Assembly (NCBI GenBank): GCA_030145305.1
Contig: JAQYVX010000001.1
Location: 299,357-329,356, forward strand
Origin: Halarcobacter sp.
GTDB taxonomy: Bacteria > Campylobacterota > Campylobacteria > Campylobacterales > Arcobacteraceae
Length of the DNA stretch: 30,000 nucleotides
Direction of reading: 5' to 3'
Shown here: in pieces, positions 2,980-21,273 of the stretch
Layout of the letters: each line of letters begins with the position of its first letter
Position numbering within the stretch: the first letter of the stretch is position 1
Made by a program: the position numbers and the translations under genes
The notes under the pieces: model-generated
The model's database searches: none
What the model was told of the DNA's origin: nothing
What the model saw: the letters and a program-made list of their open reading frames with translations, nothing else

Positions 2980-3032
2980 ATAATTCTCTTTCCTTTATTT
3001 TATTGCTATAAGATTATTATCAATAAAATTAA

Positions 3033-4198: not shown

Positions 4199-4342
4199 TT
4201 TTTTCCTTTTTATTTATCTAAATGTTATTAATATCTAAACAAATTGTATCAAAGAAATGATCAATAATTTAAATATAATCAAGATTATATTTAAATTATA
4301 TCTTGTTTTACTTATAAAAATATTCAATTTACAATGCCATGA

Positions 4343-5950: not shown

Positions 5951-5954
5951 AAGA

Positions 5955-6080
5955 TTATTTCCCTTCTGTATTTTTTGAACAATACTTTTTTTCTTCTTTG
6001 TACATCTTAATATTAAGGAGTACGCCTATAAAAAACAAACAACTGCCTATAAAAATAGAAAATAATATTTCCCCCATCAT
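5955..6080 (-). CDS. Small (41 aa) single-TM membrane peptide, putative accessory subunit of the downstream symporter (not in the ORF track)
   Basis: Translates as MMGEILFSIFIGSCLFFIGVLLNIKMYKEEKKYCSKNTEGK. A GGAG lies 5 nt before the ATG. The stop is 4 nt before the symporter ATG, with the symporter RBS (GAAGGGAAA) inside its 3' end. Confidence 0.55.
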   Translation of the reverse strand: MMGEILFSIFIGSCLFFIGVLLNIKMYKEEKKYCSKNTEGK

Positions 6081-6107
6081 CTCGCTCCAATAATTTTCAT
6101 GCTTTTA

Positions 6108-6141
6108 TATAAAGCTATATGTATTAACATATAGCTTTATA
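6108..6141. promoter_or_regulatory. Perfect 14-bp inverted repeat (hairpin or operator) between the hydratase gene and the small ORF
   Basis: TATAAAGCTATATG-tattaa-CATATAGCTTTATA. No U-run follows it on the minus strand. Confidence 0.4.
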
Positions 6142-6154
6142 ATTAATCTACTAG

Positions 6155-7006
6155 TTATTTATACTCTGCTAATGCAAAATTTAAATAAATTGTTGCTGGA
6201 TCATCTGCATTAATAACTCTAAAGTGAATAGAGTTATCATCCCATTTCCAAATTTGTGTTGTAACATTAACACCTGGTAATAGTGGTTTTGTAATTCTTG
6301 TTTTAAATCTAGTTAATCTCTCAGAATCACCATCTAATACAGAATTAATAATATGTCTACAAGCAACACCTGCTGTACTTACAGCATGTAAGATAGGTCT
6401 TTCATAACCAATTTCTGCTGCATATTCCCAATCAACATGTTGTGGATGATCATCTCCTGAAAGTCTGTAAACACAAGCTCTATCTTCAGAGATTTTTTCA
6501 GTGATTTCAAAATCTGGCTCTCTTTCAGGAATTTCTACGATATCTTTAGGTGCTTTTGGTCCATTCCAACCACCATCAAAAATACAACAATCTGTACTTT
6601 CATTAGTAAATAATAGTGTTCCATCTTCATCATAAGTTTCACCAAAGTGAACTGCTAAAGTTCCTTTACCTTCACCTCTGTCATATAAACCTTTTAATAA
6701 AACTTTTGTGCTTAATTTACCTTCAAGTTTTTTCATTGGATTAATCATTTTAATATCAAAACTCCAATGTAAAGAACCAGTATAATCATATCCCCAGTCA
6801 ATTGTTTTTGTAACTATTGACTCAACGATAGGACAAGCTGCATACGTAGGAAGCATTTTCATATCTTTTTCGTAAACATATTGTAAATCTGTTTTACCAT
6901 CATATGCTGCTCCACTACCTAGTGCAAATAAACTTAAAGATTTCCAATCATATTCTTTCTCAAACGGACCAAATGTTTGTCCTACCATTTCTGTTTTAAT
7001 TGCCAT
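6155..7006 (-). CDS. MaoC-like / hydratase-2 double hot-dog (R)-specific enoyl-CoA hydratase, in the position of caiD
   Basis: 283 aa. The hydratase-2 motif YRLSGDDHPQHVD lies in the C-terminal half (G184-H190 at 6437-6457). AAGGA RBS 7 nt upstream. Located 31 nt downstream of caiC. Confidence 0.75.
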   Translation of the reverse strand: MAIKTEMVGQTFGPFEKEYDWKSLSLFALGSGAAYDGKTDLQYVYEKDMKMLPTYAACPIVESIVTKTIDWGYDYTGSLHWSFDIKMINPMKKLEGKLSTKVLLKGLYDRGEGKGTLAVHFGETYDEDGTLLFTNESTDCCIFDGGWNGPKAPKDIVEIPEREPDFEITEKISEDRACVYRLSGDDHPQHVDWEYAAEIGYERPILHAVSTAGVACRHIINSVLDGDSERLTRFKTRITKPLLPGVNVTTQIWKWDDNSIHFRVINADDPATIYLNFALAEYK

Positions 7007-7037
7007 TTTTTATTCCTTTTTATATTTACTATTTTAT

Positions 7038-8612
7038 TTATTTATTTTTATTATCTTTTTCTCTAAGAAGATTTTTTCTTATCTTCCCCGTACTTGTTCT
7101 TGGTAAAGATTTACATATCTCAATAATAGAAGGTACTTTAAAGCAGGCTAAATGTTCAGAACAATATTCCAAAATCTGCTCTTCACTAAACTCTTCACCT
7201 TTTTTTATTACTACAAAAGCTTTAATTAATTCACTGCAAACTTTATCCGCAATGCCAATTACTCCAGCTTCAACTATTTTTGGATGTGCAGATAAAAAGA
7301 TTTCAAGCTCTTCACTTGAAACATTTTCACCAGCACTTTTAATCAAACTTGATTCACGGTCAACAAAATAAAAATACCCATCTTCATCTACATAAGCAAT
7401 ATCACCTGTATGAAGCCAACCATCAGCACTTAATACTTTTTTAGTTGCTTCAATATCATTATAATATTCTTTAAAAATAGTTTTTCCAGGTATCCCTTTA
7501 ACATAAAGTTCGCCTTGAGTATAAGGGCTTACTTCATTTCCTTGACAGTTAATAATTTTTGCTTCATATCCATCACCAACTTTTCCAATAGAAGGCCATC
7601 TACGTTCTTCTCCTGGTCTATCGCCAATTAATCCTACAATTGTTTCAGTCATACCATATGAAGTTAAAAGTCGAACATTAAATCGTTCAAGAAAAGCATC
7701 TTTTTCTTCATCTGAAATTGATAAATAATAAAATACTTCTCTTAAAGAATGTTCTTTTTCCCAAGATTTTGTTTCTTGCATCATTAAAGTGCATATAATC
7801 TTAGGAATACATTCAGTAATCGTTGCTTTATATTTACATACTTGCTTCCAAAACTTTCTCGCACTATATTTTTCAAGAAAAACAAAAGTTGCTCCTGAAA
7901 AAAAAGTAGGTAAAGTAGCTGTGCATTGAGAATCAATATGCCAAGCAGGCATAACTGTCAAATAAATATCATCTTCTTTAATTCTACCTTGCCAAGAAGT
8001 ATAATATCCTGCAAAAAGCATATTATAATGAGTAATTACAACTCCTTTTGGCAATGATGTCGTTCCAGATGTAAATAAAATCTCAACAGCATCTTCAACA
8101 TCTACTTCTACTATCTTATTTAAAGTTGAAGATTGTAATTTTAATTCATTATTGAAATTAATATATGTTTGGTGTTCAAAATTATCATCACGTGCAATTA
8201 AAATATTTTTAACTGAACTAAATCTTTCATTCTTTATTTTTTCATATACACTCAAAACATCATTTTCTATCACAACAAATTTTGGTTTACACTTATTAAC
8301 AATATAAGAACATTCTCGATACAAGTAATGTGCGTTAATAGGCACCATAATGGCGCCTATTTTAGCTAAACCAAACCAACTTATTAATAACTGTGGACTA
8401 TTATGAAGATGAATTGCTACTCTATCTCCTTTTTCAACGCCAAGAGAAAGAAATAAATTTGCAGCTTTATTAATTTCATTATTCAATTCTATATAATTAT
8501 ATTTATTAACTTTTCCATTAATATCTTCAAAAATTAATGCTGTTTTATCACTATAGATTTCCGCAAGAGAATCAAACATCTCTCTTAAGTTTTTATGCTT
8601 CATCTTATCCAT
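7038..8612 (-). CDS. caiC: Crotonobetaine/carnitine-CoA ligase (AMP-dependent synthetase)
   Basis: LFTSGTTSLPKGV AMP-binding motif, plus TSYGMTET, GWLHTGD and a C-terminal GKIRK. Stretches match remembered E. coli CaiC. The start was chosen at M8 because a GAAGGA RBS lies 7 nt upstream; the longest ORF begins at 8633. Confidence 0.85.
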   Translation of the reverse strand: MDKMKHKNLREMFDSLAEIYSDKTALIFEDINGKVNKYNYIELNNEINKAANLFLSLGVEKGDRVAIHLHNSPQLLISWFGLAKIGAIMVPINAHYLYRECSYIVNKCKPKFVVIENDVLSVYEKIKNERFSSVKNILIARDDNFEHQTYINFNNELKLQSSTLNKIVEVDVEDAVEILFTSGTTSLPKGVVITHYNMLFAGYYTSWQGRIKEDDIYLTVMPAWHIDSQCTATLPTFFSGATFVFLEKYSARKFWKQVCKYKATITECIPKIICTLMMQETKSWEKEHSLREVFYYLSISDEEKDAFLERFNVRLLTSYGMTETIVGLIGDRPGEERRWPSIGKVGDGYEAKIINCQGNEVSPYTQGELYVKGIPGKTIFKEYYNDIEATKKVLSADGWLHTGDIAYVDEDGYFYFVDRESSLIKSAGENVSSEELEIFLSAHPKIVEAGVIGIADKVCSELIKAFVVIKKGEEFSEEQILEYCSEHLACFKVPSIIEICKSLPRTSTGKIRKNLLREKDNKNK

Positions 8613-8640
8613 AGCTATTCCTTCTAAAGTCATTGTTAAC

Positions 8641-9864
8641 TTATGCCTTTTTCCCTACATTTACTATTTTACGCTCAGCAAAACCACTGATTTCTTCATC
8701 TGAATAACCAAGATCACTTAATATATCTGCTGTGTCCATACCGTATGATGGTGTTGCACGCCATACTTTACAAGGATTATTTTTGAACTTAGGCATAACA
8801 TTAGGACCTTTACATTTATCTCCTGACATTGTTTCCCATTCAGTAAATGAATCACGAGCTACATATTGAGGATTAGATTGAAGATCTTCTACATCTAATA
8901 CTTTAGCACCCGCAACTTTATAACTTGCAAGTAAAGCTAATGATTCTTCAATAGTTTTTTCTGCAAAGAATGCATCAAGTTTATCTTCTAAAATCTCACC
9001 ACAAGACATACTTCTAGCAATTAATTGTGTACCTTCTGGAATTTCTTCTGTACCAAGTAAATCTGAAATACCAAGTACTTCAAACATTGAACTAACTTGA
9101 GATCCTCCAACAATTTCAAAAACAATATATCCATCACTACATTTATAAAGTCCACAACCACAATATAAAGGATCTTTACCTTTTGTCATACGAGGACACA
9201 TTTCTCCACCATTTAAGTAATCCATCATATAATATTGACCAACTCTAAGCATAACTTCATACATAGCAACATCAATACTTTCACCAACACCTGTTTTCTC
9301 AGCACCATAAACTGCTGCTAAAACTGAACTAGTTACGGCAAATCCAGCCATATAATCAGCGGTATAAGGGAAGGCAGGCATAGGTTGATCTACATCACCA
9401 TTTTGCATTAAGTATCCACTAAATGCTTGTGCAATAGTATTATAAGCAGCTAAATTTGTATACTCAGCAGTACCATATTGTCCAAATCCAGATAAGTGAC
9501 CAATAACTAATTTTTTGTTACGTGCCCAAAGAAGTTCATCAGTAATTCCACGTTTAGCAAAAGCAGGACCTTTACTAGCTTCAATAAATACATCAGCATC
9601 TTCTATTAATTTTAAGAAAACTTCACGCCCTTCATCTGAAAAAACATTTAGTGATAATGCATGAAGATTTCTACGTGATAATTCTGGGTAATTTGGTTGA
9701 ACACGAATTGTATCTGCATAAGCTGAGTGCTCTATCCAAATTACTTCTGCTCCCCATTCTGCAAACATTTGTGCAGAGAATGGACCAGCAATTTCAATTG
9801 CTGAAAAAACAACTTTCATTCCAGCTAGAGGTCCAAATTTTGGTGTTTGTACTTTTTTTGTCAT
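8641..9864 (-). CDS. caiB: Family III CoA-transferase, L-carnitine/gamma-butyrobetainyl-CoA transferase
   Basis: [38 protein letters not shown] and [12 protein letters not shown] closely match remembered E. coli CaiB. Confidence 0.88.
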
Positions 9865-9917
9865 TTAAAATTCCTTTCTTATTCTTTGGAGTATGGAAAC
9901 CACACTCCTTAATTAAA

Positions 9918-11054
9918 TTATCTATATCTTTTTAAAACTTCTCTACCAATAGTTAAAATTTGCATTTCATCTGAACCACCTGATAGTCTATCTATTCTTA
10001 AATCTCTCCAGAAACGACCTACTCTATGTCCAGTTACACCAATTCCTCCAAGAACTTGCATTGATGAATCGATAACACTAAATGCTTCATTTGCACAAAA
10101 ATATTTACACATTGCAGAAGCTCCTGATGTTCCAATTCCTTGATCTGTTTTCCAAGCTGTTTCAAAAATCATATTTTTCATTGCATTTAACTTCATTTCC
10201 ATATGAGCAAATTTTTCTTGAATTAATTGAGTACGACCAATAGCTTCACCAAATTGAACACGTTGGTTAGCATATTTAGCAGCATCTTCAAATGCACATA
10301 AAGCTACACCATAGTTAGTACAAGCTACTAAGAAACGCTCATCATCAAACTCAGCTTTTACACGATTAAAACCTTGACCTTCTTTACCAAAAATATCTTT
10401 TTCTTCTAATTCAACATTATCAAAAACAATTTCACAACAACTATCCATTCTTAGACCAAGTTTATCAAGAGCAGTTAATTTAATACCAGGCTTAGACATA
10501 TCAACAAAGAATTCTGTAAATACAAGAGACTCAGCATCAGCATCTTTTGCCATAACAACTAAATATGGAGTATGTAAACTACTAGTAATAAAACATTTTT
10601 GTCCATTTAAATAAATTTTTCCATCTTTTCTTTTGTATGTTGATTTCATGCTTCCTACATCTGAACCAGCACTTGGTTCAGTAATAGCAGAGTTAAACAT
10701 TTGTTCACCTGTACCACGGAATTTAAAAATTTTATCTATTTGTTCTTGTGAACCATGTCTTAAGATTGTACTAAATCCAGGTAATTGATATAAAACATAC
10801 GTTGGCGCACCATGACGACCTAGTTCTGCCCAAATTGCAGTTAAAGTTACCATGCTTTCCGCCATACCACCATGCTCCTCAGGAAGAAGCATAGTATCAA
10901 TACCTAAATCAGCTAACTCTTTTACCCATCTAATTGGGTATTCATGTTTTTCATCACACTCTGCAAAATATAGTTCCCAATTTTCTCTTTCCATAAGGTC
11001 TCTTACACCTTCAACAAATAATTCTTGTTCATCACTTAATTTAAAATTTATCAT
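9918..11054 (-). CDS. caiA: Crotonobetainyl-CoA reductase (acyl-CoA dehydrogenase family flavoprotein)
   Basis: [54 protein letters not shown] and the terminal LKRYR closely match remembered E. coli CaiA. Confidence 0.88.
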
Positions 11055-11083
11055 TTTTTATATTTCCTTTTATTTTTTATCTA

Positions 11084-12601
11084 TTAATACCATTTGTTCT
11101 TTTTTGCATCTTTAAAGAAAGAATAAAGAACCAAGACATTAACAAAAATCAGTGGGAAACCACCGGCAATAATAGCAGTTTGAAGTGGTTTTAATCCTCC
11201 TAGTGCAAGTAAAGTAATACCAATAATACCTACAAGAACAGACCAACCAAGTCTTACCCATAATGGAGGCTCAGTATAACCATCAGCTTCTTTACAAGTT
11301 GACATTGCTAAAGTATATGAACAAGCATTGATCAAAGTAACTGTAGCAAGGAAACAAAGAATAAAGAATCCCCAGATTGTAATTGTAGATAAAGGTAATG
11401 CTGCCCATGCTTCAATAATAGCTCTTGGAACACCTTCATCTTTTACAATTTGAGGTATATTAATTAGATTTTGTTTCATAATATTAACTGTATTACTTCC
11501 AAGAATAGTCCACATAGACCAAGTAGTTGCAGTAAGACCAGCTACCATAACAAAACAAACTTCTCTAACTGTACGACCTCTTGAAATACGAGCTAAGAAG
11601 ATACACATTTGAATACCAAATGTAACCCACCATGCCCAATAGAAAACTGTCCAACCTTGAGGGAAACCACCATCACGGATAGCATCTGTATAGAAAAGCA
11701 TTCTAGAAAGACTATCTAACATAATCCCAACAGAATCTGTAAAATAATTTACTGTAAAAGTTGTTCCACCAATAATTAGTACCCATACTAACATGATAAT
11801 TGAAAGGTAACTTCTTACATCAGATGCCATTTTAATACCTTTTGTTAAACCAAAAGCAACACAAATAGCATTAAAAATAACCCAACAAGCAATAATTGCA
11901 CTATCAACTTGTAATGTACGTTCAATTCCAAATAACCACTCAATACATTCTGTAACAAGAGGAGTAGCTAAACCTAAACTTGTTCCCATTGCAAGAATAA
12001 GTGCAACAATATAGAAGTTATCAATTACAGTACCAAGCCATCCTTTAGAAAGCTTCTCTCCAATAGCCGCTTCAACACAACCACTAGGACGCATTACATT
12101 TATTTTTTTAACATAAATAAAATAACCAAAAGCAACAGTTAAAACAGCATATCCAGCCCATGGTAATGGACCCCAGTGGAATAAACTGTAAGCAACACCA
12201 AACTCTTGTGCTGCAGGAGAAAATGCCTCAATTGCAAATGGTGGATAAGCTATATAATAGTAAGCTTCAATAGTTCCCCAATAAAGAACAGCAGCAGATG
12301 TACAAGATGCGAACATCAAGAAAATCCAACTTCCCGTACTAAATTCTGGTTTTTCTTCACCAAGTGTATTATTTTTCATAGGACCAAAAGCTAGCCATGC
12401 CCAAATGATTCCAAAAATAACCATATACCACTCAAACAACCATCCCCAACTATTTGTTACATAACCAAATAATGAGTTAATAGCTGCATTTGCTGCATCT
12501 AAGTCTCTAACAACTAGGTAACCAAGAATTACCACGACAATAAGTGACGGGAAAAATATTTTAGGTTCAATACCTACTTTTTTCACTTCTTTCTCTTCCA
12601 C
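11084..12601 (-). CDS. caiT: BCCT-family L-carnitine/gamma-butyrobetaine antiporter
   Basis: [20 protein letters not shown] and [15 protein letters not shown] (BCCT signature) are present. The 505 aa length and long stretches match remembered E. coli CaiT. Confidence 0.9.
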
Positions 12602-12682: not shown

Positions 12683-12751
12683 AAATCACGATATTTTACA
12701 AATCGTGATTTTTACTACCGAAATCATACTCTCATTAGTTTTAATTGTCAA
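12683..12751 (-). promoter_or_regulatory. caiT promoter with two downstream operator copies
   Basis: On the minus strand: TTGACA (12746-12751), a 17-nt spacer, then TATGAT (12723-12728). Operators AATCGTGATT (12701-12710) and AATCACGATA (12684-12693) form the inverted repeat AAATCACGAT-N9-ATCGTGATTT. Confidence 0.6.
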
Positions 12752-12883
12752 GTAAAATTAACTTAAAATTCTAATTTTATAATTAATATTTAATTAAGGT
12801 AAAGAATTATTTACTTAAGTTAATTATAAGAGTAGTGTTTTTATGGGATTTTAAAAATATGATTTATTTAAAGTGTGTCATTT

Positions 12884-12899
12884 TATAATCATGATTATA
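12884..12899 (+). promoter_or_regulatory. ribB upstream 16-bp perfect palindrome overlapping a TATAAT box
   Basis: TATAATCATGATTATA contains TATAAT (12884-12889) and the AATCATGATT core (12887-12896). It lies 56 nt upstream of the ribB ATG. Confidence 0.5.
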
Positions 12900-12954
12900 T
12901 TTTAACTCAGGATTAATATGTTATTATACTTAAATATTAATATTAGGAAGAAAA

Positions 12955-14013
12955 ATGAATTTACTTAGAAATAATGATAAGTCAATTGAGGCAATTGAAA
13001 GAGTATGCCAAGCAATTGAAGATGTTAGACAAGGTAAAATGGTTGTTATGGTTGATGATGAAGATAGAGAGAATGAGGGAGATTTAGTTTATGCTGCTTC
13101 TTTCTCAACTCCTGAAAAAGTTAATTTTATGGCTTCACATGCAAAAGGGCTTATTTGTGTAGCCCTTTCAAAAAAAATAGCTTCACGTTTGGAGCTTACT
13201 CCAATGGTTAAGAATAATGATTCTTCTTATGAAACAGCTTTTACAATTTCTGTTGATGCAAAAGATGCAGAAACAGGGATATCTGCTATTGAAAGAGATA
13301 TGACTATTAAAATCTTATCTGACAATAATTCAGAAGCTGCAGAATTAGTAAGACCAGGACATATTTTCCCTCTTATTGCAAAAGAAGGTGGAGCATTAGT
13401 AAGAACTGGTCATACAGAAGGATCTGTCGATTTATGTAAATTAGCTGGATTAGGTGAAGCTAGTGTTATTTGTGAAGTTATGAAAGAAGATGGAACAATG
13501 GCAAGAAGACCTGATCTTGATATTTTCTGTGAAAAGCATGAACTAAATATTGTTTATATCTCTGACATTGTTGAATATCGTATGATGAATGAGTCATTAA
13601 TTAATCTTGAAAAAGAATCAACTCAAGTATTTCTTGGTGCACAAGCAAAAAAATATGATTTTCGAGATCATTTAGATAATAATCACATTGTTTACACTTT
13701 TGGAGAGTTTAGTAATCGTGCTGCTGTAAAATTTCATTCTATTATTCCTGATAATGAACTACTAGCATCAACTGAAAAATATGATGAAATGATAAATAGT
13801 ATTAAATATTTACAAAAAAATAGTGGTATTTTGGTTTTCATGGATAGCAATACTAAAAATATGACTCAAATTAGAGAATATGGAATAGGAGCACAGCTTC
13901 TTAAATATTTAGGAATAGAAGAGATTGAGCTTCTTAGTAATAGTAAAACAATAGAACTTGTGGGAATTAGTGGTTTTGGGTTAAGTGTAACAAAATTAAT
14001 TAGTTTAAAATAA
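12955..14013 (+). CDS. ribB: 3,4-dihydroxy-2-butanone-4-phosphate synthase with a degenerate C-terminal GTP-cyclohydrolase-II-like domain
   Basis: DDEDRENEGDL, RPGHIFPL and RTGHTEGSVDL are DHBP synthase motifs. The C-terminal ~150 aa lacks the Cys triad seen in RibA. Confidence 0.9.
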   Translation: MNLLRNNDKSIEAIERVCQAIEDVRQGKMVVMVDDEDRENEGDLVYAASFSTPEKVNFMASHAKGLICVALSKKIASRLELTPMVKNNDSSYETAFTISVDAKDAETGISAIERDMTIKILSDNNSEAAELVRPGHIFPLIAKEGGALVRTGHTEGSVDLCKLAGLGEASVICEVMKEDGTMARRPDLDIFCEKHELNIVYISDIVEYRMMNESLINLEKESTQVFLGAQAKKYDFRDHLDNNHIVYTFGEFSNRAAVKFHSIIPDNELLASTEKYDEMINSIKYLQKNSGILVFMDSNTKNMTQIREYGIGAQLLKYLGIEEIELLSNSKTIELVGISGFGLSVTKLISLK

Positions 14014-14026
14014 TAATAGAACTAAG

Positions 14027-14063
14027 AAAAGCCAAGTATTTTTGAATACTTGGCTTTTTTTTT
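14027..14063. terminator. Bidirectional rho-independent terminator (ribB / porin)
   Basis: AAAA-GCCAAGTATT-tttg-AATACTTGGC-TTTTTTTTT forms a 10-bp stem flanked by A and T runs. Confidence 0.8.
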
Positions 14064-15201
14064 AGATAGAGAATGGAAAAGTTAGATTAACTCTTAATTC
14101 TTTTTCATCTTTATCTCTACCTGCATCATCATAAAGAACAGCAACATTTAAATCTTTAAATACTCCTGCATCAAATGTATAATCTGCTGTAACACTTGTA
14201 TATGAGTATTCTTTATCATCATAATCATCAAGAACATAATTCATACCAACATTTAGTGCAGGCGTTAATTTATAAGCTACACCAATTTTATATGCATCAC
14301 TATTTGCACCATATGTATCTGATAGAATTGGAGAACCTGTATATGCATAATCTGCACCATTTCCTAATCCTGCATGTACATATGCATCACCAGTTGTTGT
14401 ATAAGCTGCTAATAATGATAAATTACCTAAATCAAAAGTAGCTTTTAAACCAAATAAATCTGTGTCTTTTGAACCCTCTTTTTCACTATCATAATATTGT
14501 GAAGCAAGTCCAAATATTCCTTTTTTAAATGAAGCTTCTGCATATGTAACTTCCATAAGATCTTTTGCATCTAAATAAGCTAAAGTAAGATTTACATTTG
14601 GAATTGAAGAATTTTCTACTACTGCTGTATAAGCACCATCTACTAATTCACCTTGCCAAGTAAAGTCTCTTGTAAATTTACCAAAGTTACCATCTCCATC
14701 TGTACGATTTTGCATTTTTTGAACATATCCAATAGTTACTTTTGTATCAGGGATATCTGAATTAGTAATTAAAGCACCTTCAAAAGATTCTCTATTCATA
14801 CGTGAACCACTTCCATAAATAAGTGGTGTAGCAAAATACATTCGCCCAATTTGTGCTGTAGTTTTGCCAGCAGCATATGAAAGATAAAGTTCTGATAATT
14901 GAGAACCTGACCCATACATATCACTATTAAATACACTTTCAGCATCATCATCTGAGAAAGGTGAAGATGAAGATTGGAAAGTTGATTTTAAACCAAAACC
15001 ATAGAAACGTCCTGTTTCATAACTAAGATCTAAACCAAAATTCATAATATCAGCATCTACACCTTTATCACGTTGCCAATAATAAGCCTGAACTTTACCT
15101 TCTACCTTACCTTCTTTAAAGGCATCTGCCAAACTATCTGCACCAAATGCAGATGAACTTAAAGCAATAATTGCTGCTAGACTAAATTTAACTAATTTCA
15201 T
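14062..15201 (-). CDS. Outer-membrane beta-barrel porin (OprD-like / Campylobacterota porin family)
   Basis: Start taken at MKLVKFSLAAIIALSSSAFG|ADS, which gives a signal peptide and has an AAGGAG RBS 5 nt upstream. Sequence is rich in G/Y/D/S/T with alternating beta-strand patterns. The ORF-track start at 15228 lacks an RBS. Confidence 0.75.
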   Translation of the reverse strand: MKLVKFSLAAIIALSSSAFGADSLADAFKEGKVEGKVQAYYWQRDKGVDADIMNFGLDLSYETGRFYGFGLKSTFQSSSSPFSDDDAESVFNSDMYGSGSQLSELYLSYAAGKTTAQIGRMYFATPLIYGSGSRMNRESFEGALITNSDIPDTKVTIGYVQKMQNRTDGDGNFGKFTRDFTWQGELVDGAYTAVVENSSIPNVNLTLAYLDAKDLMEVTYAEASFKKGIFGLASQYYDSEKEGSKDTDLFGLKATFDLGNLSLLAAYTTTGDAYVHAGLGNGADYAYTGSPILSDTYGANSDAYKIGVAYKLTPALNVGMNYVLDDYDDKEYSYTSVTADYTFDAGVFKDLNVAVLYDDAGRDKDEKELRVNLTFPFSI

Positions 15202-15222
15202 AATATCTCCTTGAAAATTTAT

Positions 15223-15308
15223 AATCACGATTAATAAAACATAGCGATGATTTAAAAATCATGATTAATAAGTTCTGAATTGTACTGTAATGTTTAATCA
15301 ATTGTCAA
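15223..15308 (-). promoter_or_regulatory. Porin promoter with operator copies
   Basis: On the minus strand: TTGACA (15303-15308), an 18-nt spacer, then TACAAT (15279-15284). Operators are AATCATGATT (15257-15266), a degenerate copy (15243-15252) and AATCACGATT (15223-15232). Confidence 0.6.
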
Positions 15309-15510
15309 GTAAACTTAAATAAAAAACTTAATTTTTGTATTAAATTTTAATTAAGGTTATTAAATAAAGTCTAATAATTATTTTTGTTTATATTTCAAAA
15401 TAGAGGATTTGGGGTTTAGTTCTTACTTAAAAAAGAGATTGCAAGTAAATTTTATTTTTCTTCAATGATAATAAGTATTGTTATAAATTAAGATAATAAT
15501 ATTTTAGAAA

Positions 15511-15535
15511 AATAAAAAAGAGGGAGTATCCTCTT
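15511..15535 (-). terminator. Rho-independent terminator after caiE
   Basis: The minus strand reads AAGAGG-atactc-CCTCTT followed by TTTTTATTTTT, 10 nt after the caiE stop. Confidence 0.6.
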
Positions 15536-15544
15536 CTTTATTTA

Positions 15545-16135
15545 TTAACTATTTTTAGGAGTATAGTCCATTTCAAATCTTTTAGCATTTCTAGCAGGAG
15601 TTAATTCTTTTAATGGCTCACAAGATTTAAAATCTTTTAAACATCGTGTGGTTAAATCAATATACGATTGTGTACTTTCTCTTTTCCACTCAATTTCTTC
15701 TTCACGCAACTCTCTTTTTACTTTTGCTGGAATACCAAGGGCAAGATGATTATCAGGAATATTCATCATCCCAGGAACAAGAGAAGAAGCTCCAACAATG
15801 GAATTACAACCAACTACAGCCTTATCCATTATCACAGCACCCATTCCAACCATTGCGTTATTTTTTATATGACAACTATGTAAAATTGCACTATGTCCAA
15901 TATGACCGTTTTCTTCAATAATAGTATCTATTCCTGTATATCCATGTAAAATGCAACAATCTTGTATATTAACATTTTTTCCAATGAGAATACGTCCAAA
16001 ATCGCCTCTTATAGAACTATTTGGTCCTATATAAGAACCTTCTTCAATAATTACATCACCTATAATTACAGCACTTTCATGAACAAATGCTTTTTCGTTA
16101 ATAACAGGTTTAATACCATCAATTTCATAAATCAT
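15545..16135 (-). CDS. caiE: Carnitine operon protein CaiE (hexapeptide-repeat / gamma-carbonic-anhydrase-like)
   Basis: FVHESAVIIGDVII, IRGDFGRILIG, NIQDCCILHG and ENGHIGHSAILH are present, and the sequence is collinear with remembered E. coli CaiE. Length 196 aa. Confidence 0.85.
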   Translation of the reverse strand: MIYEIDGIKPVINEKAFVHESAVIIGDVIIEEGSYIGPNSSIRGDFGRILIGKNVNIQDCCILHGYTGIDTIIEENGHIGHSAILHSCHIKNNAMVGMGAVIMDKAVVGCNSIVGASSLVPGMMNIPDNHLALGIPAKVKRELREEEIEWKRESTQSYIDLTTRCLKDFKSCEPLKELTPARNAKRFEMDYTPKNS

Positions 16136-16173
16136 ATTTTACTCACTTCTTATTTTAATAGTTTATCTTTTGA

Positions 16174-16461
16174 TTAACCGTAACGATACTCAACACCAAA
16201 TGTTCCATTTGGATATTCCCATTTTTTTAAAATAGTTTTACCACATAAAATACGGCATGTTCCACATTCTAAGCAACCAGCATAATCAAACTTGAAATTT
16301 CCATTGTCATCTCTTTTGTATAAGCCAGCAGGACACGCTGCTTCTAATTTTTTGAATTCAATTAAATCTGGTTTATCAACTAACTCAATATGAGCTTCAC
16401 CTTCATCAACAAAAAATTTATTAACACCTAGTTTAACATCAACATTTACTGAATTTTTCAT
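16174..16461 (-). CDS. fixX: Ferredoxin-like protein FixX
   Basis: 95 aa with CPAGLY and CLECGTCRILC cysteine motifs. It overlaps the fixC stop by 4 nt. Confidence 0.88.
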   Translation of the reverse strand: MKNSVNVDVKLGVNKFFVDEGEAHIELVDKPDLIEFKKLEAACPAGLYKRDDNGNFKFDYAGCLECGTCRILCGKTILKKWEYPNGTFGVEYRYG

Positions 16462-17744
16462 ATCGATTTCACCCCTTTAAATGCATCTTTCATTAGATTT
16501 ATAAATCCAACTTTCTTTAGATATGGCATAACCGTTTTTCGTAATGGTTGGCTAGGTCCGTTTACAGTAAACATTCCTTTCATAATACCAGTTGCCATTT
16601 CTGGATAATCATTAAACATACGTTTATTATCTAAGAATTCTGGTAAATCTTTATATAATTTTAAGTCTTTCATTACAAAACTATCATCTAATTCTTTTGT
16701 ATAAGAAGATAAAGAGTTTTCACTAAAATCATTTTTTTCTTTTGCCGCAAGAATTGCATTAGCAGCTGCTTCACCTGAAGCAATAGCTAAATCCATACCA
16801 CGAACTGTATATCCAACATTAAGACAAAGACCTGCTGCGTCACCTACAAGAAGAACACCATTACCAACCATTTTAGGTAACATGTTATATCCTCCTTCTG
16901 GAACTACGTGAGCAGAATACTCAACAGATTCTCCTCCTTTTACTAAAGGCTTAACACTTGGATGATTTTTAAAATCTTCTAACATTTGAGGAACACTTTT
17001 TCCAGCTTTCTCAATATTATGAAGTCCAAATACAACACCTAATGAAATAGTGTCTTCATTAGTATAAATAAATCCTCCACCCATATATCCATCAGAAGGT
17101 GTACCCGCAAAAAGCCAAGCTGTACCTTCATCATCAGTACAAGCGAAACGATCATTTACTTGTTCTTTTGTTAATTGTATAACTTCTTTAACTCCAACCG
17201 CGCAATTATGTGGAGTTACTTTTGAAACCATACCTAATTTTTCACCTAAGATAGAATTTGCACCATCAGCAAGGACAACGACATCTGCCTCCATCTCTTC
17301 ACCACCAGCAACAACTCCACAGACTTTTCCATTACGAGTTATAACATCGTCTACACGAACACCAGGAATAAGTCCAACACCGGCTTCTTCTGCCTTGTCC
17401 CCTAACCATTGATCAAATTTAGTTCTTAATACTGTATATGAACGATTTGATTTTTCATCATCCTTAGGAGCAGCATAATCCATAGTAACACTACTTTTCT
17501 CTTCCATAAAAGAAATCTTTTCATGAACAATCGCACGTTCAATAGGAGCCTCTTCTGCAAAATTTGGAAAAATTTTTTCAATACTATGAGCATAAAGCCT
17601 ACCACCAGTCATATTCTTAGACCCTGCAAAGTTTCCTCTTTCAATAATTAGAGTTTCTAAACCTGCTTTTGCAAGAATATAACCAGTAATACAACCAGCT
17701 ATTCCTCCACCTACAATAATTGCATCAAATTTTTCTTCAGCCAT
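16458..17744 (-). CDS. fixC: FAD-dependent ETF-quinone-type oxidoreductase FixC
   Basis: FDAIIVGGGIAGC dinucleotide-binding fold. 428 aa. Sits in the fixB-fixC-fixX order. Confidence 0.88.
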   Translation of the reverse strand: MAEEKFDAIIVGGGIAGCITGYILAKAGLETLIIERGNFAGSKNMTGGRLYAHSIEKIFPNFAEEAPIERAIVHEKISFMEEKSSVTMDYAAPKDDEKSNRSYTVLRTKFDQWLGDKAEEAGVGLIPGVRVDDVITRNGKVCGVVAGGEEMEADVVVLADGANSILGEKLGMVSKVTPHNCAVGVKEVIQLTKEQVNDRFACTDDEGTAWLFAGTPSDGYMGGGFIYTNEDTISLGVVFGLHNIEKAGKSVPQMLEDFKNHPSVKPLVKGGESVEYSAHVVPEGGYNMLPKMVGNGVLLVGDAAGLCLNVGYTVRGMDLAIASGEAAANAILAAKEKNDFSENSLSSYTKELDDSFVMKDLKLYKDLPEFLDNKRMFNDYPEMATGIMKGMFTVNGPSQPLRKTVMPYLKKVGFINLMKDAFKGVKSI

Positions 17745-17772
17745 AATTCTACCTTATATAAAAATTTATATA

Positions 17773-18714
17773 TTACTGTTTAAGGGCATTAATTACAGCA
17801 GGTAGAATAGTATAAAGATCCCCTACTATCCCATAATCAGCATAGTCAAAAATTGGTGCATTTTTATCTTTATTCACAGCTACAATTATCTGTGAATCTT
17901 TAGCACCTACCATATGTTGGATTTGTCCAGAAATACCAACTGCAAAATAGATTTCAGGTTTAGCCATAACACTTGAAATACCAATGTAACGTTCATGTTC
18001 CATCCATTTTTCACCTTCTGCTATAGGTCTTGAACATCCTAATTCTGCATCGAATAAAGAACAAAGTTCTTCTGCAATTTTAATATCTTCTTCTTTTGCA
18101 ATACCACGTCCAATTGCAACAATACGTTTTGCTTTATTTAAATCAACACTACTTCCTTCTTTAGGAAGTCTATTAATACATTTAACACCACTATTGTTTT
18201 CAACAAAATCTACAACTTTAGCTTCACCAGATTTAGAAGTATCAATCTCTTTTCCTTCATATAATCCACCTGATATTACAGCAATAGAAACATTTGTTTT
18301 TATTAATTCTTCACTAATTGCTAATCCACCATATGCTAAATGTTTACATTTAACACCAGCTTCATCAATCTCAATATTAGATACTTCTGTTACAACACCA
18401 GCGTTTAATTCAGCACCAAGTAATGAAGCTAATGCTTTACATCTTTTTGTTCCTGGCATTAATACTAATGATTTACCTTCACTTGCTGCAATAACTTTTG
18501 CAATAGTTTTAGAATAACTTTCTATGATTTTACTAGAATCATATTCTCCTAGATTATAAACTTCATTTGCTCCATAAGCATATGCATCTGACACTTGTTC
18601 AGAACCAATAACTAATGCAGAAACATTTTCTCCTAATTCTAAACCTCCAGCTATTACTTCTGGTAAACGTGCAGAGGTATCACTAAAAACCCATATATTT
18701 GATAACTTACTCAT
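17773..18714 (-). CDS. fixB: Electron transfer flavoprotein alpha subunit FixB
   Basis: The C-terminal FAD-binding region reads PEIYFAVGISGQIQHMVG...IVAVNKDKNAPIF. Length 313 aa. Confidence 0.88.
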   Translation of the reverse strand: MSKLSNIWVFSDTSARLPEVIAGGLELGENVSALVIGSEQVSDAYAYGANEVYNLGEYDSSKIIESYSKTIAKVIAASEGKSLVLMPGTKRCKALASLLGAELNAGVVTEVSNIEIDEAGVKCKHLAYGGLAISEELIKTNVSIAVISGGLYEGKEIDTSKSGEAKVVDFVENNSGVKCINRLPKEGSSVDLNKAKRIVAIGRGIAKEEDIKIAEELCSLFDAELGCSRPIAEGEKWMEHERYIGISSVMAKPEIYFAVGISGQIQHMVGAKDSQIIVAVNKDKNAPIFDYADYGIVGDLYTILPAVINALKQ

Positions 18715-18729
18715 TCTATCCTCCGACTA

Positions 18730-19488
18730 TTAAATAATTTTTCGTAAATGACTAACAAACTCAGAAATTTTATCATCTGAGTCACCTTCGATAATAATAT
18801 GTTGTCGTTCTTTTTTCTTAGGTGCTTTAATATCAACAAGCTCCACTAAATCTTGATTATCTTCTTCACTACTCATAGTATTAACAGGTTTTTTACCTGC
18901 TCCAATAATAGCTTTCATTCCAGGAATTGAAGGTTGATTAATATCAGCAGAAACAGAAATTACAGCTGGTAAAGAAACTTCTAAAACTTCAATTTCGTTT
19001 TCTAAAGCTCTTTCTACTACTAATTTATCTTCTTCAACAGATACAATTTTAGATACTGAGTTAACAACTGATACATTTAAAATAGCTCCAAGTCTAACAC
19101 CTGTTTGCTGTGCATAAATATCACCAGAACCGTCACCACAAAGAATTAAATCAAAACCAACATTTTTTGCAGTTTCAGCAAAAATTTTTGCTGTTTGATG
19201 TGGTAAAATATTTTCATATTTTTCATCACTTACAATAACTAATTCATCTGGTCCACGAGATAGCATATCTTTTCGTGATTTTACATTATCAAGAGATTTC
19301 CCCCCAATACTTACCGCACAAATAGTAGATTCTGCATTATTTTTTTTGATTTCAACTGCTGCTTCAATAGCATTAAGGTCAAATTGACTTATTTTTGGTG
19401 ATGCCTTACTAGTATCAAGACTACCATCATTATTAACTTTAATATCTTGATCTTCGGGTACTAACTTACACCCAACTAAAATTTTCAT
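18730..19488 (-). CDS. fixA: Electron transfer flavoprotein beta subunit FixA
   Basis: ETF-beta features are present: MKILVGCKLVPE, NAIEAAVEIK and LILCGDGSGD. Length 252 aa. Confidence 0.88.
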   Translation of the reverse strand: MKILVGCKLVPEDQDIKVNNDGSLDTSKASPKISQFDLNAIEAAVEIKKNNAESTICAVSIGGKSLDNVKSRKDMLSRGPDELVIVSDEKYENILPHQTAKIFAETAKNVGFDLILCGDGSGDIYAQQTGVRLGAILNVSVVNSVSKIVSVEEDKLVVERALENEIEVLEVSLPAVISVSADINQPSIPGMKAIIGAGKKPVNTMSSEEDNQDLVELVDIKAPKKKERQHIIIEGDSDDKISEFVSHLRKII

Positions 19489-19542
19489 TTAGATCTCCTT
19501 CCAATTCTTAATTTTTACTTTCATAATCTAATCAGATTTAAA

Positions 19543-19596
19543 AAATCATGATTTATTTATAATCAGAATATTACACTAATCATGATTACTTGTCAA
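19543..19596 (-). promoter_or_regulatory. fixA promoter with one operator inside the spacer and one downstream
   Basis: On the minus strand: TTGACA (19591-19596), a 17-nt spacer, then TAATAT (19568-19573). TAATCATGATTA (19577-19588) lies within the spacer and AAATCATGATTT (19543-19554) lies downstream. Confidence 0.6.
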
Positions 19597-19660
19597 GGAT
19601 TTTACTTAATTTATTTAACATTAATTAAAATTTAATATTAATTTAAGTTTTGTGGGTAAT

Positions 19661-20539
19661 TTATCTATATCTTTTTAATATCGTATGGTACATTGCATTA
19701 GCAAATATTTTATTAGTTGTATAACTAAAATGCCATTCATCCCAAAAATAATACTCACTTTCATCACCAGAAGAAGTCATAATTTCAGGGTAAGTACTTT
19801 GATACTCTTTTGTTAATACTTTTAAATCATATTTATTAGGATTTTGTACAATATCATTACTTACAGAAGTATGATCAAATTCGATTATTGATACATTTAA
19901 TTCATTTTGCAACTCTTTTAAATTTCTTGGAAGATTTTCATTAACAATTTTTACAAACTCTTTTGCAGAATTTATTCTATTCATAGTATTTTCATAAGGA
20001 ACAAGAGATAAATCACTACAATTTACAACAAAAAACTTTTTGCCACCAATTTTTGCTAGTTTTTTTATAGCATTCTTTATATTATCAATTACAGTATAAG
20101 CTAACTCTTCAATACTTCCTTGTTTGTTGAAATCCATATATGCAAAATAGTCATTTTCAGAAGCAAAAATAAAATAAAGAGTATTTGAATCTATTTCATT
20201 TGTAGATAAATTCTTTTCAAATCTATCAATTTGTCCTAGCACTCCTGTATCACCTAAATAATCCATCCAGTCTGTATAATTTTCTTTACCAGAAGTTGCA
20301 CCACCTGTTGCATAACTTACTAAGTTTACATCAAGTCTTTTTGCTAATAATTCAACAGCTGCATACCCATTTGAATATCTTCCATTCCAATATAATCCTT
20401 CTGTTGGTTTTAAAAACGCATCTTTTGGACTATTTTCTTTAGATAAAATTGTTGAAGATATTCTTCTTGCTTCTCCATTATCTGAATAACTATTACCAAA
20501 TGCAATTACTTGACTTATTTTATTTTCATTTTTTGACAT
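19661..20539 (-). CDS. SGNH/GDSL-family esterase/lipase with no signal peptide
   Basis: Block I is AFGNSYSDNG, block II-like is NGRYSNG, and block V is FWDEWH (D-x-x-H). AAGGAAA RBS. Located 19 nt downstream of ribA. Confidence 0.75.
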   Translation of the reverse strand: MSKNENKISQVIAFGNSYSDNGEARRISSTILSKENSPKDAFLKPTEGLYWNGRYSNGYAAVELLAKRLDVNLVSYATGGATSGKENYTDWMDYLGDTGVLGQIDRFEKNLSTNEIDSNTLYFIFASENDYFAYMDFNKQGSIEELAYTVIDNIKNAIKKLAKIGGKKFFVVNCSDLSLVPYENTMNRINSAKEFVKIVNENLPRNLKELQNELNVSIIEFDHTSVSNDIVQNPNKYDLKVLTKEYQSTYPEIMTSSGDESEYYFWDEWHFSYTTNKIFANAMYHTILKRYR

Positions 20540-20558
20540 AAATTTTCCTTTTTATTAA

Positions 20559-21164
20559 TTAAAGAAGATGACCCATTTGTTCTTTTTTTGTTTTAAGATA
20601 TTCAGCATTATATTTATTACTTGAGATAATTATGGGTAGTCTTTTAATAATATCAACACCCTTTATTGAGTTTATTTTCTTAGGATTATTAGTAAGTAAA
20701 TTTATTTTTTTGATATTATAATATGAAAGTATAAACTCGACAACTTGGTATGAGCGTTCATCTGCTTTAAATCCTAATTGATGATTAGCTTGAATTGTGT
20801 CATATCCTTGATCTTGCAAAGCATAAGCATTAACTTTATTAAACAATCCTATATCTCTGCCCTCTTGTCTTAAATAAATTACCATGCCTTTCTCTTCAAA
20901 TATAGTTTTCAAAGAATAATCAAGTTGTTCACCACAATCACATTTTAACGAGCCAAAAGCATCTCCTGTTAAACATTCACTATGAATACGAATTGTTGGT
21001 ATTTCAGTCATCTCTTTTGAAGATACAACCAAATGTTCTTTGTAACCTTCTTGAAAAGATTGAATATTAAATGTTCCAAAAGATGTAGGTAAGTTTGCAA
21101 TATTTGAAACTTTTATTTCTGCGTTTTGTTTTATTGTGCGTATAGTCATTTTATCAACTCTCAT
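20559..21164 (-). CDS. ribA: GTP cyclohydrolase II
   Basis: IHSECLTGDAFGSLKCDCGEQL zinc-site motif and YLRQEGRDIGL. An alternative start exists at M6 (21149). Confidence 0.9.
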   Translation of the reverse strand: MRVDKMTIRTIKQNAEIKVSNIANLPTSFGTFNIQSFQEGYKEHLVVSSKEMTEIPTIRIHSECLTGDAFGSLKCDCGEQLDYSLKTIFEEKGMVIYLRQEGRDIGLFNKVNAYALQDQGYDTIQANHQLGFKADERSYQVVEFILSYYNIKKINLLTNNPKKINSIKGVDIIKRLPIIISSNKYNAEYLKTKKEQMGHLL

Positions 21165-21244
21165 TCTTAAATTTAAAAACTAGCATAAATGAGTTTTGTT
21201 TAATAAAAATATTTCAATTATAGCAAGTCTATTTTTTATCACGT

Positions 21245-21273
21245 ATTATAAAATAATCATGATTATTTGTCAA
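21245..21273 (-). promoter_or_regulatory. ribA promoter with an 18-bp perfect palindrome filling the spacer
   Basis: On the minus strand: TTGACA (21268-21273), a 17-nt spacer, then TATAAT (21245-21250). AAATAATCATGATTATTT spans 21251-21268. A half-site-like ATCACGTAT lies just downstream (about 21237-21245). Confidence 0.6.

What the first reader, a model, noticed from the sequence alone, without database searches (positions are those of the whole stretch)
12683..21273. One palindromic operator (AATCATGATT) sits on five promoters: caiT, porin, fixA, ribA-esterase and ribB
The perfect 10-bp palindrome AATCATGATT occurs at 12887-12896, 15257-15266, 19544-19553, 19578-19587 and 21255-21264. AATCRYGATT variants lie at 12701-12710 (AATCGTGATT), 12684-12693 (AATCACGATA) and 15223-15232 (AATCACGATT), with degenerate copies near 15243-15252 and 21237-21245. 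All copies are intergenic. Each lies in a repressor-type position relative to a readable minus-strand TTGACA-N17/18-TAxxAT promoter, or a plus-strand TATAAT for ribB. For fixA and ribA the copy is inside the -35/-10 spacer. For ribB it overlaps the -10. For caiT and the porin it lies exactly 12 nt downstream of the -10. Flanks extend the symmetry to 16 bp (TATAATCATGATTATA, 12884-12899) and 18 bp (AAATAATCATGATTATTT, 21251-21268). The equally good TTGACA-17-TATAAT promoter of the tRNA-Asn genes (22629-22657) has no copy, which serves as an internal negative control. A non-exhaustive scan by eye found no perfect copy inside any CDS. This looks like a single-repressor regulon joining quaternary-amine respiration, a porin and riboflavin synthesis. 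I am not aware of such a wiring having been described. The only regulator in the window is the TetR protein (3479-4198), whose family typically binds short palindromes. A distal regulator is equally possible.
Basis: partly seen in the sequence, partly recalled or inferred. Interest (0 to 1): 0.85.

Follow-up and report, generated by a model that had tools for sequence, protein, structure and literature searches.

The report
Carnitine-locus TetR repressor and its operator
The repeated palindrome AATCATGATT is real and is most likely the binding site of the TetR-type repressor encoded next door, which switches carnitine respiration, a porin, an esterase and vitamin-precursor genes on and off together; it is an uncharacterised but conventional kind of gene switch.

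Summary
AATCATGATT occurs 5 times, and all copies lie in the 3.1 kb of intergenic DNA (expected 0.015). Relaxed copies (AATCNNGATT) bring the intergenic total to 8.

The sites sit in the -35/-10 spacer (fixA, ribA), over the -10 (ribBA), or 12 nt after it (caiT, porin). Neighbouring sites are always 17 or 34 bp apart.

The same sites at the same promoter positions recur in related Campylobacterota. They also track orthologues of the window's TetR protein through Desulfobacterota and Bacillota. This holds in 47-57% GC genomes, next to a different carnitine pathway (carnitine dehydrogenase/BKACE), and next to a betaine-type reductase. The TetR recognition helix is invariant across this subfamily.

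Best reading: an autoregulated TetR-family repressor, probably released by carnitine or a close derivative. It controls caiTABC-maoC-SSS, fixABCX-caiE, a porin, ribBA, ribA-esterase and tetR-panD-MBL.

This is a new member of a known kind. The co-control of flavin and CoA precursor genes with a flavin- and CoA-dependent pathway is the moderately interesting part. DNA binding and the effector are inferred, not shown.

The parts
3479..4198 (-). tetR: TetR-family regulator, the proposed repressor that binds the operator
   Evidence: It carries Pfam TetR_N. The AF2 model has pLDDT 91.8 and a TetR fold. The orthologue family of 104 proteins is syntenic with carnitine genes.
4274..4289 (.).
   Evidence: Found (PWM score 16.5). 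An equivalent site lies upstream of tetR in L084, L085, L086, L095, L196 and L200.
2386..3416 (-). panD (3033-3416) and an MBL-fold hydrolase (2386-2979), downstream of tetR in the same orientation; probably one operon
   Evidence: The order tetR-panD-MBL is conserved in L084 and L085, with panB added in L085. In L002 an operator precedes MBL-panB.
4343..12601 (-). caiT-caiA-caiB-caiC-maoC-type hydratase-(small ORF)-SSS transporter operon
   Evidence: The same gene set occurs in Desulfobacterota and Endozoicomonas loci.
12684..12710 (.). caiT operators AATCACGATA (12684-12693) and AATCGTGATT (12701-12710), 17 bp apart, starting 12 nt downstream of the -10
   Evidence: Shown. The caiT promoters of L086, L156, L012, L198, L196, L081 and L049 also carry sites.
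12723..12751 (-). caiT promoter TTGACA-17-TATGAT
12884..12899 (.). ribBA operator TATAATCATGATTATA, overlapping a plus-strand TATAAT
   Evidence: Shown. The ribBA upstream regions of L002 and L156 carry arrays spaced 17-18 bp.
12955..14013 (+). ribBA (DHBP synthase fused to a GTP cyclohydrolase II-like domain)
   Evidence: NF006804 scores 544 bits against a cut-off of 432.
14062..15203 (-). Opr/OprD-family porin
   Evidence: Family hits. A porin follows the fix operon in L002, L086 and L134.
15223..15266 (.). Porin operators AATCACGATT (15223-15232) and AATCATGATT (15257-15266), 34 bp apart, with a degenerate half-site between them
   Evidence: Shown. The same 34-bp pair stands before the porin in L002 and L134.
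15279..15308 (-). Porin promoter TTGACA-18-TACAAT
15545..19488 (-). fixA-fixB-fixC-fixX-caiE operon
19544..19587 (.). fixA operators: 19578-19587 inside the -35/-10 spacer and 19544-19553, 34 bp downstream
   Evidence: Shown. The architecture is identical in L001, L002, L086 and L095.
19568..19596 (-). fixA promoter TTGACA-17-TAATAT
19661..21164 (-). ribA (GTP cyclohydrolase II) and GDSL esterase operon
   Evidence: Family hits. The same pair lies upstream of fixA in L001.
21251..21268 (.). ribA operator AAATAATCATGATTATTT inside the spacer of TTGACA-17-TATAAT (21273-21245, minus strand)

Best explanation
The 10-bp palindrome AATC-NN-GATT (extended consensus wwTAATC[A/G][T/C]GATTAww) is the operator of the TetR-family protein encoded at 3479-4198. 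Dimers of this protein bind single sites or arrays spaced 17 or 34 bp. The sites lie inside the -35/-10 spacer, over the -10, or on the first 30 or so transcribed bases. From these positions the protein would block RNA polymerase at six promoters: tetR-panD-MBL (autoregulation), caiTABC-maoC-SSS, ribBA, porin, fixABCX-caiE and ribA-esterase. When a trimethylammonium compound is available, most likely L-carnitine or a close derivative such as an acylcarnitine, crotonobetaine or a CoA ester, the repressor leaves the DNA. Uptake (porin, CaiT), release from esters (esterase), the CoA-dependent reductive pathway (CaiABC, MaoC hydratase), its electron supply (FixABCX) and the entry steps of riboflavin (RibA, RibBA) and pantothenate (PanD; PanB in relatives) synthesis then rise together. 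Shown here: site positions, statistics, conservation, and co-occurrence with the TetR subfamily. Inferred: which protein binds, repression rather than activation, and the effector.
For: 1. Enrichment: 5 perfect copies lie in 3.1 kb of intergenic DNA against 0.015 expected.
2. Position: the sites overlap the four strongest sigma-70-like promoters of the region, and the tRNA-Asn promoter has none.
3. Footprint across species: the fixA promoter reads TTGACA-N3-AATCRTGATT-N4-TAnnAT with a second site 34 bp downstream in the window, L001, L002, L086 and L095. The caiT, porin, ribA, ribBA and tetR promoters carry sites in relatives.
4. Link to TetR: an operator lies upstream of tetR in the window, L084, L085, L086 and L095. 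TetR orthologues at 54-57% identity sit beside caiT, with AATCGCGATT/AATCATGATC-type sites in that region, in Desulfobaculum (52% GC), Maridesulfovibrio (47%) and Geopsychrobacteraceae (57%). A 49% orthologue in Oscillospiraceae sits beside an L-carnitine dehydrogenase/BKACE cluster with ACATAATCATGATTATTA between them. Homologues at 51% and 36% identity in Clostridia still have AATCATGATT nearby.
5. The recognition helix AGY(T/N)SATLYNYF is invariant across the subfamily, which matches an invariant operator.
6. No other regulator is encoded in the window.
7. 73 FixC loci (1.29 Mb) without a TetR hit had no site scoring 13 or more.
Against: No binding or expression data exist. Only about 30 kb of this genome was available, so a genome-wide (global) distribution of the motif cannot be excluded. 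The Campylobacter pinnipediorum locus (L083) has the TetR orthologue but no clear site in the 20 kb retrieved, although its cai operon promoter lies outside the locus. A metagenome search for two sites 34 bp apart returned mostly unrelated DNA, 76 of 80 listed loci, so the 10-mer pair is not diagnostic on its own. If ribA and ribBA are the only copies in the genome, tight repression would be harmful, so control of them may be partial. The 73-locus control is confounded by the higher G+C content of many of those genomes.
Confidence: 0.8

Rival explanations
1. The motif is bound by a different regulator encoded elsewhere in the genome, for example a Fur-like metalloregulator, since riboflavin genes are iron-regulated in Campylobacter and Helicobacter. 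On this view the neighbouring TetR gene is coincidental.
For: ribA and ribBA belong to iron-responsive regulons in related genera (my own knowledge, not tested here). The motif is AT-rich and shares ATAATCAT with the classical Fur box. Only 30 kb of the genome could be scanned.
Against: The window has no match to the 19-bp Fur consensus within 3 mismatches. The half-sites abut (5-0-5 or 7-0-7) rather than following the Fur 7-1-7 layout. The motif co-occurs with TetR orthologues in three phyla and lies upstream of tetR. The other promoters in the window lack it.
Confidence: 0.1
2. The TetR protein binds these sites but acts as an activator or dual regulator, or responds to a signal other than a quaternary amine, such as flavin or CoA status or an acyl-CoA.
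For: The nearest structural matches include the acyl-CoA-sensing FadR proteins. The regulon contains flavin and CoA precursor genes. The effector was not tested.
Against: Sites inside the -35/-10 spacer and at about +6 to +30 are classical repressor positions. The feature shared by the subfamily's neighbourhoods is a quaternary amine substrate, not a shared intermediate: the reductive cai/fix pathway, the carnitine dehydrogenase/BKACE pathway and a Grd-type reductase with a BCCT transporter. The structural matches are remote, with TM about 0.6 and at most 19% identity.
Confidence: 0.07
3. The copies are leftovers of duplicated promoter cassettes and have no regulatory role of their own.
For: The caiT and porin promoter regions of the window align over about 150 bp. 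All four strong promoters share TTGACAA.
Against: The flanks of the other sites are not alike. The 10-mer is kept while its surroundings diverge in other species and phyla, including genomes of 47-57% GC. Its register relative to -35/-10 is conserved.
Confidence: 0.03

Closest known systems
BetI, the choline-responsive TetR-family repressor of betIBA/betT (E. coli and others; my own knowledge)
   Same: It is a TetR-family repressor of quaternary-amine metabolism. It is autoregulated, has a short palindromic operator overlapping the promoter, and is released by the substrate.
   Different: Similarity is limited to the HTH: BetI models score 32 and 27 bits against cut-offs of 201 and 118. The operator sequence is different. 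The regulon here is carnitine respiration plus cofactor genes, a porin and an esterase.
CaiF, activator of the E. coli caiTABCDE and fixABCX operons (reported to be activated by crotonobetainyl-CoA, abstract of PMC12083890; the rest is my own knowledge)
   Same: It controls the same target pathway genes (cai and fix) in response to carnitine metabolism.
   Different: CaiF is an activator of an unrelated protein family that acts on one divergent cai-fix control region. No ORF of 80 aa or more in the window matched a CaiF model. cai and fix are co-oriented here and separated by ribBA and the porin gene.
TetR-type FadR of Bacillus and Thermus, an acyl-CoA-responsive repressor with operators at several fatty-acid degradation operons (PDB 3anp, 5gp9, 3whb; PMC5397183 abstract)
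   Same: It is a TetR repressor that controls several dispersed operons of a CoA-dependent pathway through one palindromic box, sometimes in tandem.
   Different: The relationship is structural and remote only (TM 0.5-0.55, 11-12% identity). The operator and the likely effector class differ.
PocR control of cob (B12 synthesis) together with pdu (propanediol use) in Salmonella (my own knowledge)
   Same: The logic is the same: synthesis of a cofactor is co-induced with the pathway that consumes it.
   Different: PocR is an AraC-type activator, the cofactor is B12 and the pathway is unrelated. Here a repressor would couple flavin and pantothenate entry steps to a flavoprotein- and CoA-dependent pathway.

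Membership tests
TetR-family repressor/operator system | N-terminal TetR-type helix-turn-helix domain | tested here: met
   Pfam PF00440 TetR_N, E 4.8e-08, 33 bits against a cut-off of 24. PDB sequence hits are all TetR-family proteins.
TetR-family repressor/operator system | All-helical two-domain TetR fold | tested here: met
   The AF2 model has pLDDT 91.8 and is all helical. Its top Foldseek hits are all TetR-family proteins (Rv0078, EthR2, FadR) at probability 1.00 and TM about 0.6.
TetR-family repressor/operator system | Short palindromic operator at or next to its own gene and at adjacent target promoters | tested here: met
   A site lies at 4274-4289 upstream of tetR. Equivalent sites lie near tetR orthologues in L084, L085, L086, L095, L196, L197, L200 and L081.
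TetR-family repressor/operator system | Sequence-specific DNA binding that a small-molecule ligand relieves | not testable with these tools
   This needs EMSA or footprinting and ligand titration. The only supporting observations are an invariant recognition helix and conserved aromatic residues in the ligand domain.
BetI (choline-binding TetR repressor) | Score above the curated cut-off of the BetI equivalog models | tested here: not met
   TIGR03384 scores 32.1 bits against 201.3, and NF001978 scores 27.3 against 118. The match covers the HTH only.
CaiF-dependent cai/fix control (Enterobacteria) | A caiF gene and a shared divergent cai-fix control region | tested here: not met
   No ORF of 80 aa or more in the window hits a CaiF model. 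cai and fix are both on the minus strand, 6.9 kb apart.
Fur box / Fur regulon | 19-bp GATAATGATAATCATTATC-type box (7-1-7 inverted repeat) | tested here: not met
   The window has no match within 3 mismatches. The site consensus is a gapless palindrome centred on AATC-NN-GATT.
FMN riboswitch control of rib genes | RFN element in the 5' leader of ribA or ribBA | tested here: not met
   An Rfam gathering-threshold scan of the whole window finds only the two tRNAs.

The most novel reading that the evidence does not exclude
A previously uncharacterised TetR subfamily, spread by gene transfer across Campylobacterota, Desulfobacterota and Bacillota, senses trimethylammonium compounds directly and keeps a single operator (AATC-NN-GATT) everywhere. 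In Arcobacter-like bacteria it has expanded from a pathway switch into a provisioning regulon. That regulon turns on carnitine respiration together with the entry enzymes for FAD and CoA synthesis, an outer-membrane porin, esterases that could free carnitine from acylcarnitines, and, in a relative, a dCache chemoreceptor.
Probability: 0.5. Interest if true: 0.5.

Novelty: new member of a known kind. Interest (0 to 1): 0.4.

Why it matters
Bacterial carnitine reduction to gamma-butyrobetaine is a step on the route to trimethylamine. Outside Enterobacteria its regulation is essentially undescribed. A compact repressor/operator pair that appears to respond to carnitine-type compounds would explain control of cai/fix genes in Campylobacter, Arcobacter-like and Desulfovibrio-like bacteria. 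It would give a ready-made motif for finding such regulons in genomes. It could also serve as a biosensor part alongside CaiF. The co-regulation of riboflavin and pantothenate entry steps with a flavoprotein- and CoA-dependent pathway is a tidy example of cofactor provisioning. None of this changes how TetR-type regulation is understood.

Tried and rejected
- The single genome-contig scan went on FixC loci. It gave useful relatives (L001, L002, L012) and 73 loci without motif or TetR, but many of those are G+C-richer, so they are a weak control.
- A metagenome scan for two operators 34 bp apart was meant as a reverse test. Only 4 of 80 listed loci (L087, L095, L134, L156) were cai/fix loci. 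The rest were unrelated repeats and other AATCGCGATTAA-type arrays. I therefore dropped the idea that the site pair alone identifies the system.
- L003 (Malaciobacter halophilus) was uninformative, because fixA there is preceded by coding sequence at the contig edge.
- L083 (C. pinnipediorum) showed no clear site, but its operon promoter lies outside the locus.
- A Fur box, an FMN riboswitch, CaiF and BetI membership were considered and rejected.
- Literature searches for a carnitine-linked TetR regulator, for carnitine metabolism in Arcobacter and for the 10-mer itself found nothing relevant.
- Direct control of panE by the 21255 site was considered and left open. The site belongs to the divergent ribA promoter and lies about 85 bp from the likely panE -10.
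Full report
**Observation**

AATCATGATT occurs exactly five times in the window, at 12887, 15257, 19544, 19578 and 21255. Shuffles of the whole window give 0.27 expected copies. With one mismatch allowed there are 11 matches against 4.3 expected.

After assigning genes, all five perfect copies fall in the 3,069 intergenic bases. A Markov model of intergenic DNA alone gives 0.015 expected copies. The looser form AATCNNGATT occurs 8 times in intergenic DNA (0.15 expected) and 3 times in 26.9 kb of coding DNA. The window is 29.6% G+C. Its TetR protein falls in the same 90%-identity cluster as one annotated from a Halarcobacter sp. MAG.

**Gene map**

| Coordinates | Strand | Gene or product |
|---|---|---|
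| 2386-2979 | - | MBL-fold hydrolase |
| 3033-3416 | - | panD |
| 3479-4198 | - | tetR |
| 4343-5950 | - | SSS (PanF-like) transporter |
| 6155-7006 | - | MaoC-type hydratase |
| 7038-12601 | - | caiC, caiB, caiA, caiT |
| 12955-14013 | + | ribBA |
| 14062-about 15203 | - | Opr/OprD porin |
| 15545-19488 | - | caiE, fixX, fixC, fixB, fixA |
| 19661-20539 | - | GDSL esterase |
| 20559-21164 | - | ribA |
| 21389-22345 | + | panE |
| downstream | | two tRNA-Asn genes, hemE, asd, gyrA, argJ |

**Promoter architecture**

Read on the transcribed strand:

- fixA: TTGACA-AGT-[AATCATGATT]-AGTG-TAATAT, with a second site 34 bp downstream.
- ribA: TTGACA-AAT-[AATCATGATT]-ATTT-TATAAT.
- caiT: TTGACA-17-TATGAT-12 nt-[AATCACGATT]-7 nt-[TATCGTGATT].
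- porin: TTGACA-18-TACAAT-12 nt-[AATCATGATT], with a further site 34 bp on.
- ribBA: the site overlaps a plus-strand TATAAT.
- tRNA-Asn: TTGACA-17-TATAAT with no site.

A sixth site, TATAATCAAGATTATA at 4274-4289, lies 79 bp upstream of the tetR start codon.

**Conservation**

FixC-based loci from other genomes and loci around TetR homologues were scanned with an 18-bp matrix built from the window's sites.

- fixA promoter: the arrangement TTGACA-N3-site-N4-(-10), followed by a TGATTATA half-site and a second site 34 bp downstream, recurs in L001, L002, L086 and L095.
- caiT promoter: sites occur in L086, L156, L012 and L198.
- porin promoter: the 34-bp pair occurs in L002 and L134.
- ribA promoter: sites occur in L001 and L002.
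- ribBA promoter: sites occur in L002 and L156.

Further targets appear in relatives:

- an Abhydrolase_3 esterase (L002, L086);
- an MBL-panB operon (L002);
- a dCache methyl-accepting chemoreceptor (L002).

Across 15 loci, every pair of neighbouring sites is 17-18 or 34-35 bp apart. The 53 collected sites give the consensus wwTAATC[A/G][T/C]GATTAww.

**Who binds**

tetR is the only regulator gene in the window. Its homologue family of 104 proteins is tightly linked to carnitine genes. An operator lies upstream of tetR in the window, L084, L085, L086 and L095.

| Locus | Organism (G+C) | TetR identity to the window protein | Neighbouring genes | Sites found |
|---|---|---|---|---|
| L081 | Desulfobaculum bizertense (52%) | 57% | tetR faces caiT | TAATCGCGATT and ATAATCGCGATCAT repeated in the intergenic region |
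| L196 | Maridesulfovibrio (47%) | 54-55% | tetR-MBL, then caiT | one site before tetR; three before caiT, 34-35 bp apart |
| L197 | Oscillospiraceae (55%) | 49% | L-carnitine dehydrogenase (419 bits, cut-off 414), a BKACE enzyme, an SSS transporter | ACATAATCATGATTATTA in the divergent region |
| L199 | Clostridiaceae (31%) | 51% over two thirds of its length | Grd-type (betaine/sarcosine) reductase cluster, in-frame stop typical of a selenoprotein, BCCT transporter | two perfect sites and one variant |
| L200 | unnamed NCBI assembly GCA_018433765.1 (27%) | 36% | tetR | CTATAATCATGATTATTG upstream of tetR |

The recognition helix AGY(T/N)SATLYNYF is invariant across the aligned subfamily. Several aromatic residues of the ligand domain are conserved. 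The AF2 model is confident (pLDDT 91.8) and has a TetR fold, but no close solved relative exists. By contrast, 73 FixC loci (1.29 Mb) without a TetR hit had no site scoring 13 or more. Many of those genomes are G+C-richer, so this control is weak.

**Mechanism**

The positions in the spacer, over the -10 and on the early transcribed region are repressor positions. The site before tetR implies autoregulation.

The gene neighbourhoods of the subfamily use different chemistry: reductive cai/fix, carnitine dehydrogenase/BKACE, and a Grd-type reductase. What they share is a trimethylammonium substrate and a transporter. The simplest inference is therefore direct sensing of carnitine or a close analogue, rather than of a pathway-specific CoA intermediate. 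This step is inferred only.

The regulon content makes physiological sense:

- CaiA, FixA/B and FixC are flavoproteins, and RibA and RibBA are the two entry steps of riboflavin synthesis.
- CaiB and CaiC use CoA, and PanD (with PanB in relatives) feeds pantothenate and CoA synthesis.
- The porin and the recurring but non-homologous esterases (GDSL here, Abhydrolase_3 in relatives) fit uptake of carnitine and its release from esters.

Whether the island's rib and pan genes are extra copies is unknown. ribA travels with the island in different positions (window, L001, L002, L095), and a RibBA gene follows fixX in a Geopsychrobacteraceae locus.

**Rivals**

- A distal Fur-like regulator is unlikely. 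The window has no Fur box within 3 mismatches, the half-site geometry is different, and the motif tracks TetR.
- An FMN riboswitch is absent.
- No CaiF gene was found, and the cai/fix layout is not the enterobacterial one.
- Pure promoter duplication explains only the caiT/porin pair. It does not explain conservation across phyla.

**Limits**

- There is no experimental evidence.
- A metagenome search for the 34-bp site pair returned mostly unrelated sequences, so the 10-mer is not unique to this system.
- L083 shows the TetR orthologue without a clear site in the DNA retrieved.

**Comparison with known systems and novelty**

In kind, this is an ordinary autoregulated TetR-type repressor with a palindromic operator.

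- It works like BetI and like the TetR-type FadR proteins, but it is not a BetI member by score.
- It replaces the CaiF activator logic of E. coli.
- Co-inducing cofactor synthesis with the pathway that uses the cofactor recalls PocR control of cob and pdu.

Searches of the held literature found no description of this regulator, operator or wiring.

**Verdict**

It is a new member of a known kind, of moderate interest.

Noticed in passing
window 12760-12800 and 15320-15356 (minus strand): The caiT and porin promoter regions align over about 150 bp. Both carry ACCTTAATTAAA starting exactly 48 nt upstream of the -35. This may be a duplicated promoter cassette or a second shared binding site, such as an activator site. 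The element is absent from the orthologous promoters of L002 and L134, but CCTTAATTAA recurs just upstream of the tetR operator in L086.
   Followed up: partly
window 6108-6141: A perfect 14-bp-stem inverted repeat (TATAAAGCTATATG-TATTAA-CATATAGCTTTATA) lies 14 nt after the maoC stop codon and before the small ORF and SSS transporter. No T-run follows it on the transcribed strand. It could be an intra-operon RNA hairpin or another protein's site.
   Followed up: no
window about 5961-6086 (minus strand): A small ORF of about 41 codons sits directly upstream of the SSS transporter. Similar genes of 41-46 codons precede the SSS gene in L085, L086 and L197, which suggests a conserved small membrane subunit of this transporter.
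   Followed up: no
L002 5000-5710 and 7394-8131; L002 14852-17119: The related Campylobacterales MAG carries two TetR paralogues, each about 64% identical to the window's protein. One lies inside an operator-controlled esterase-ribA-tetR operon. A dCache-type chemoreceptor gene in the same locus has an operator downstream of its TTGACA promoter, which hints at regulated chemotaxis towards the substrate.
   Followed up: partly
L152 9873-10049; L125 8025-8119; L118 1235-1300: Unrelated metagenome contigs contain tandem arrays with a 17-bp period whose unit includes the same 10-mer (for example AAGACAAATCACGATTC, 10.4 copies at 98% identity). They lie among small ORFs next to other iteron-like repeats, so they look like phage or plasmid iterons. 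The 17-bp period matches the operator spacing seen here. That may be coincidence.
   Followed up: partly
L004, L005, L008, L081 compared with window 7038-12601: CaiA is 81-85% identical and FixC 71-76% identical between this Campylobacterota window and Desulfobacterota or Endozoicomonas loci. The SSS transporter and the MaoC hydratase are embedded in the cluster in all of them. This points to recent cross-phylum transfer of the whole carnitine module, with MaoC replacing CaiD.
   Followed up: no
L001 and L085: Both contigs come from the same assembly (ERZ3820729) and are about 90% identical to the window at protein level. There the fix-ribA part and the cai-tetR part lie on separate contigs, so the regulator may act on a physically separate locus in that organism.
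   Followed up: no
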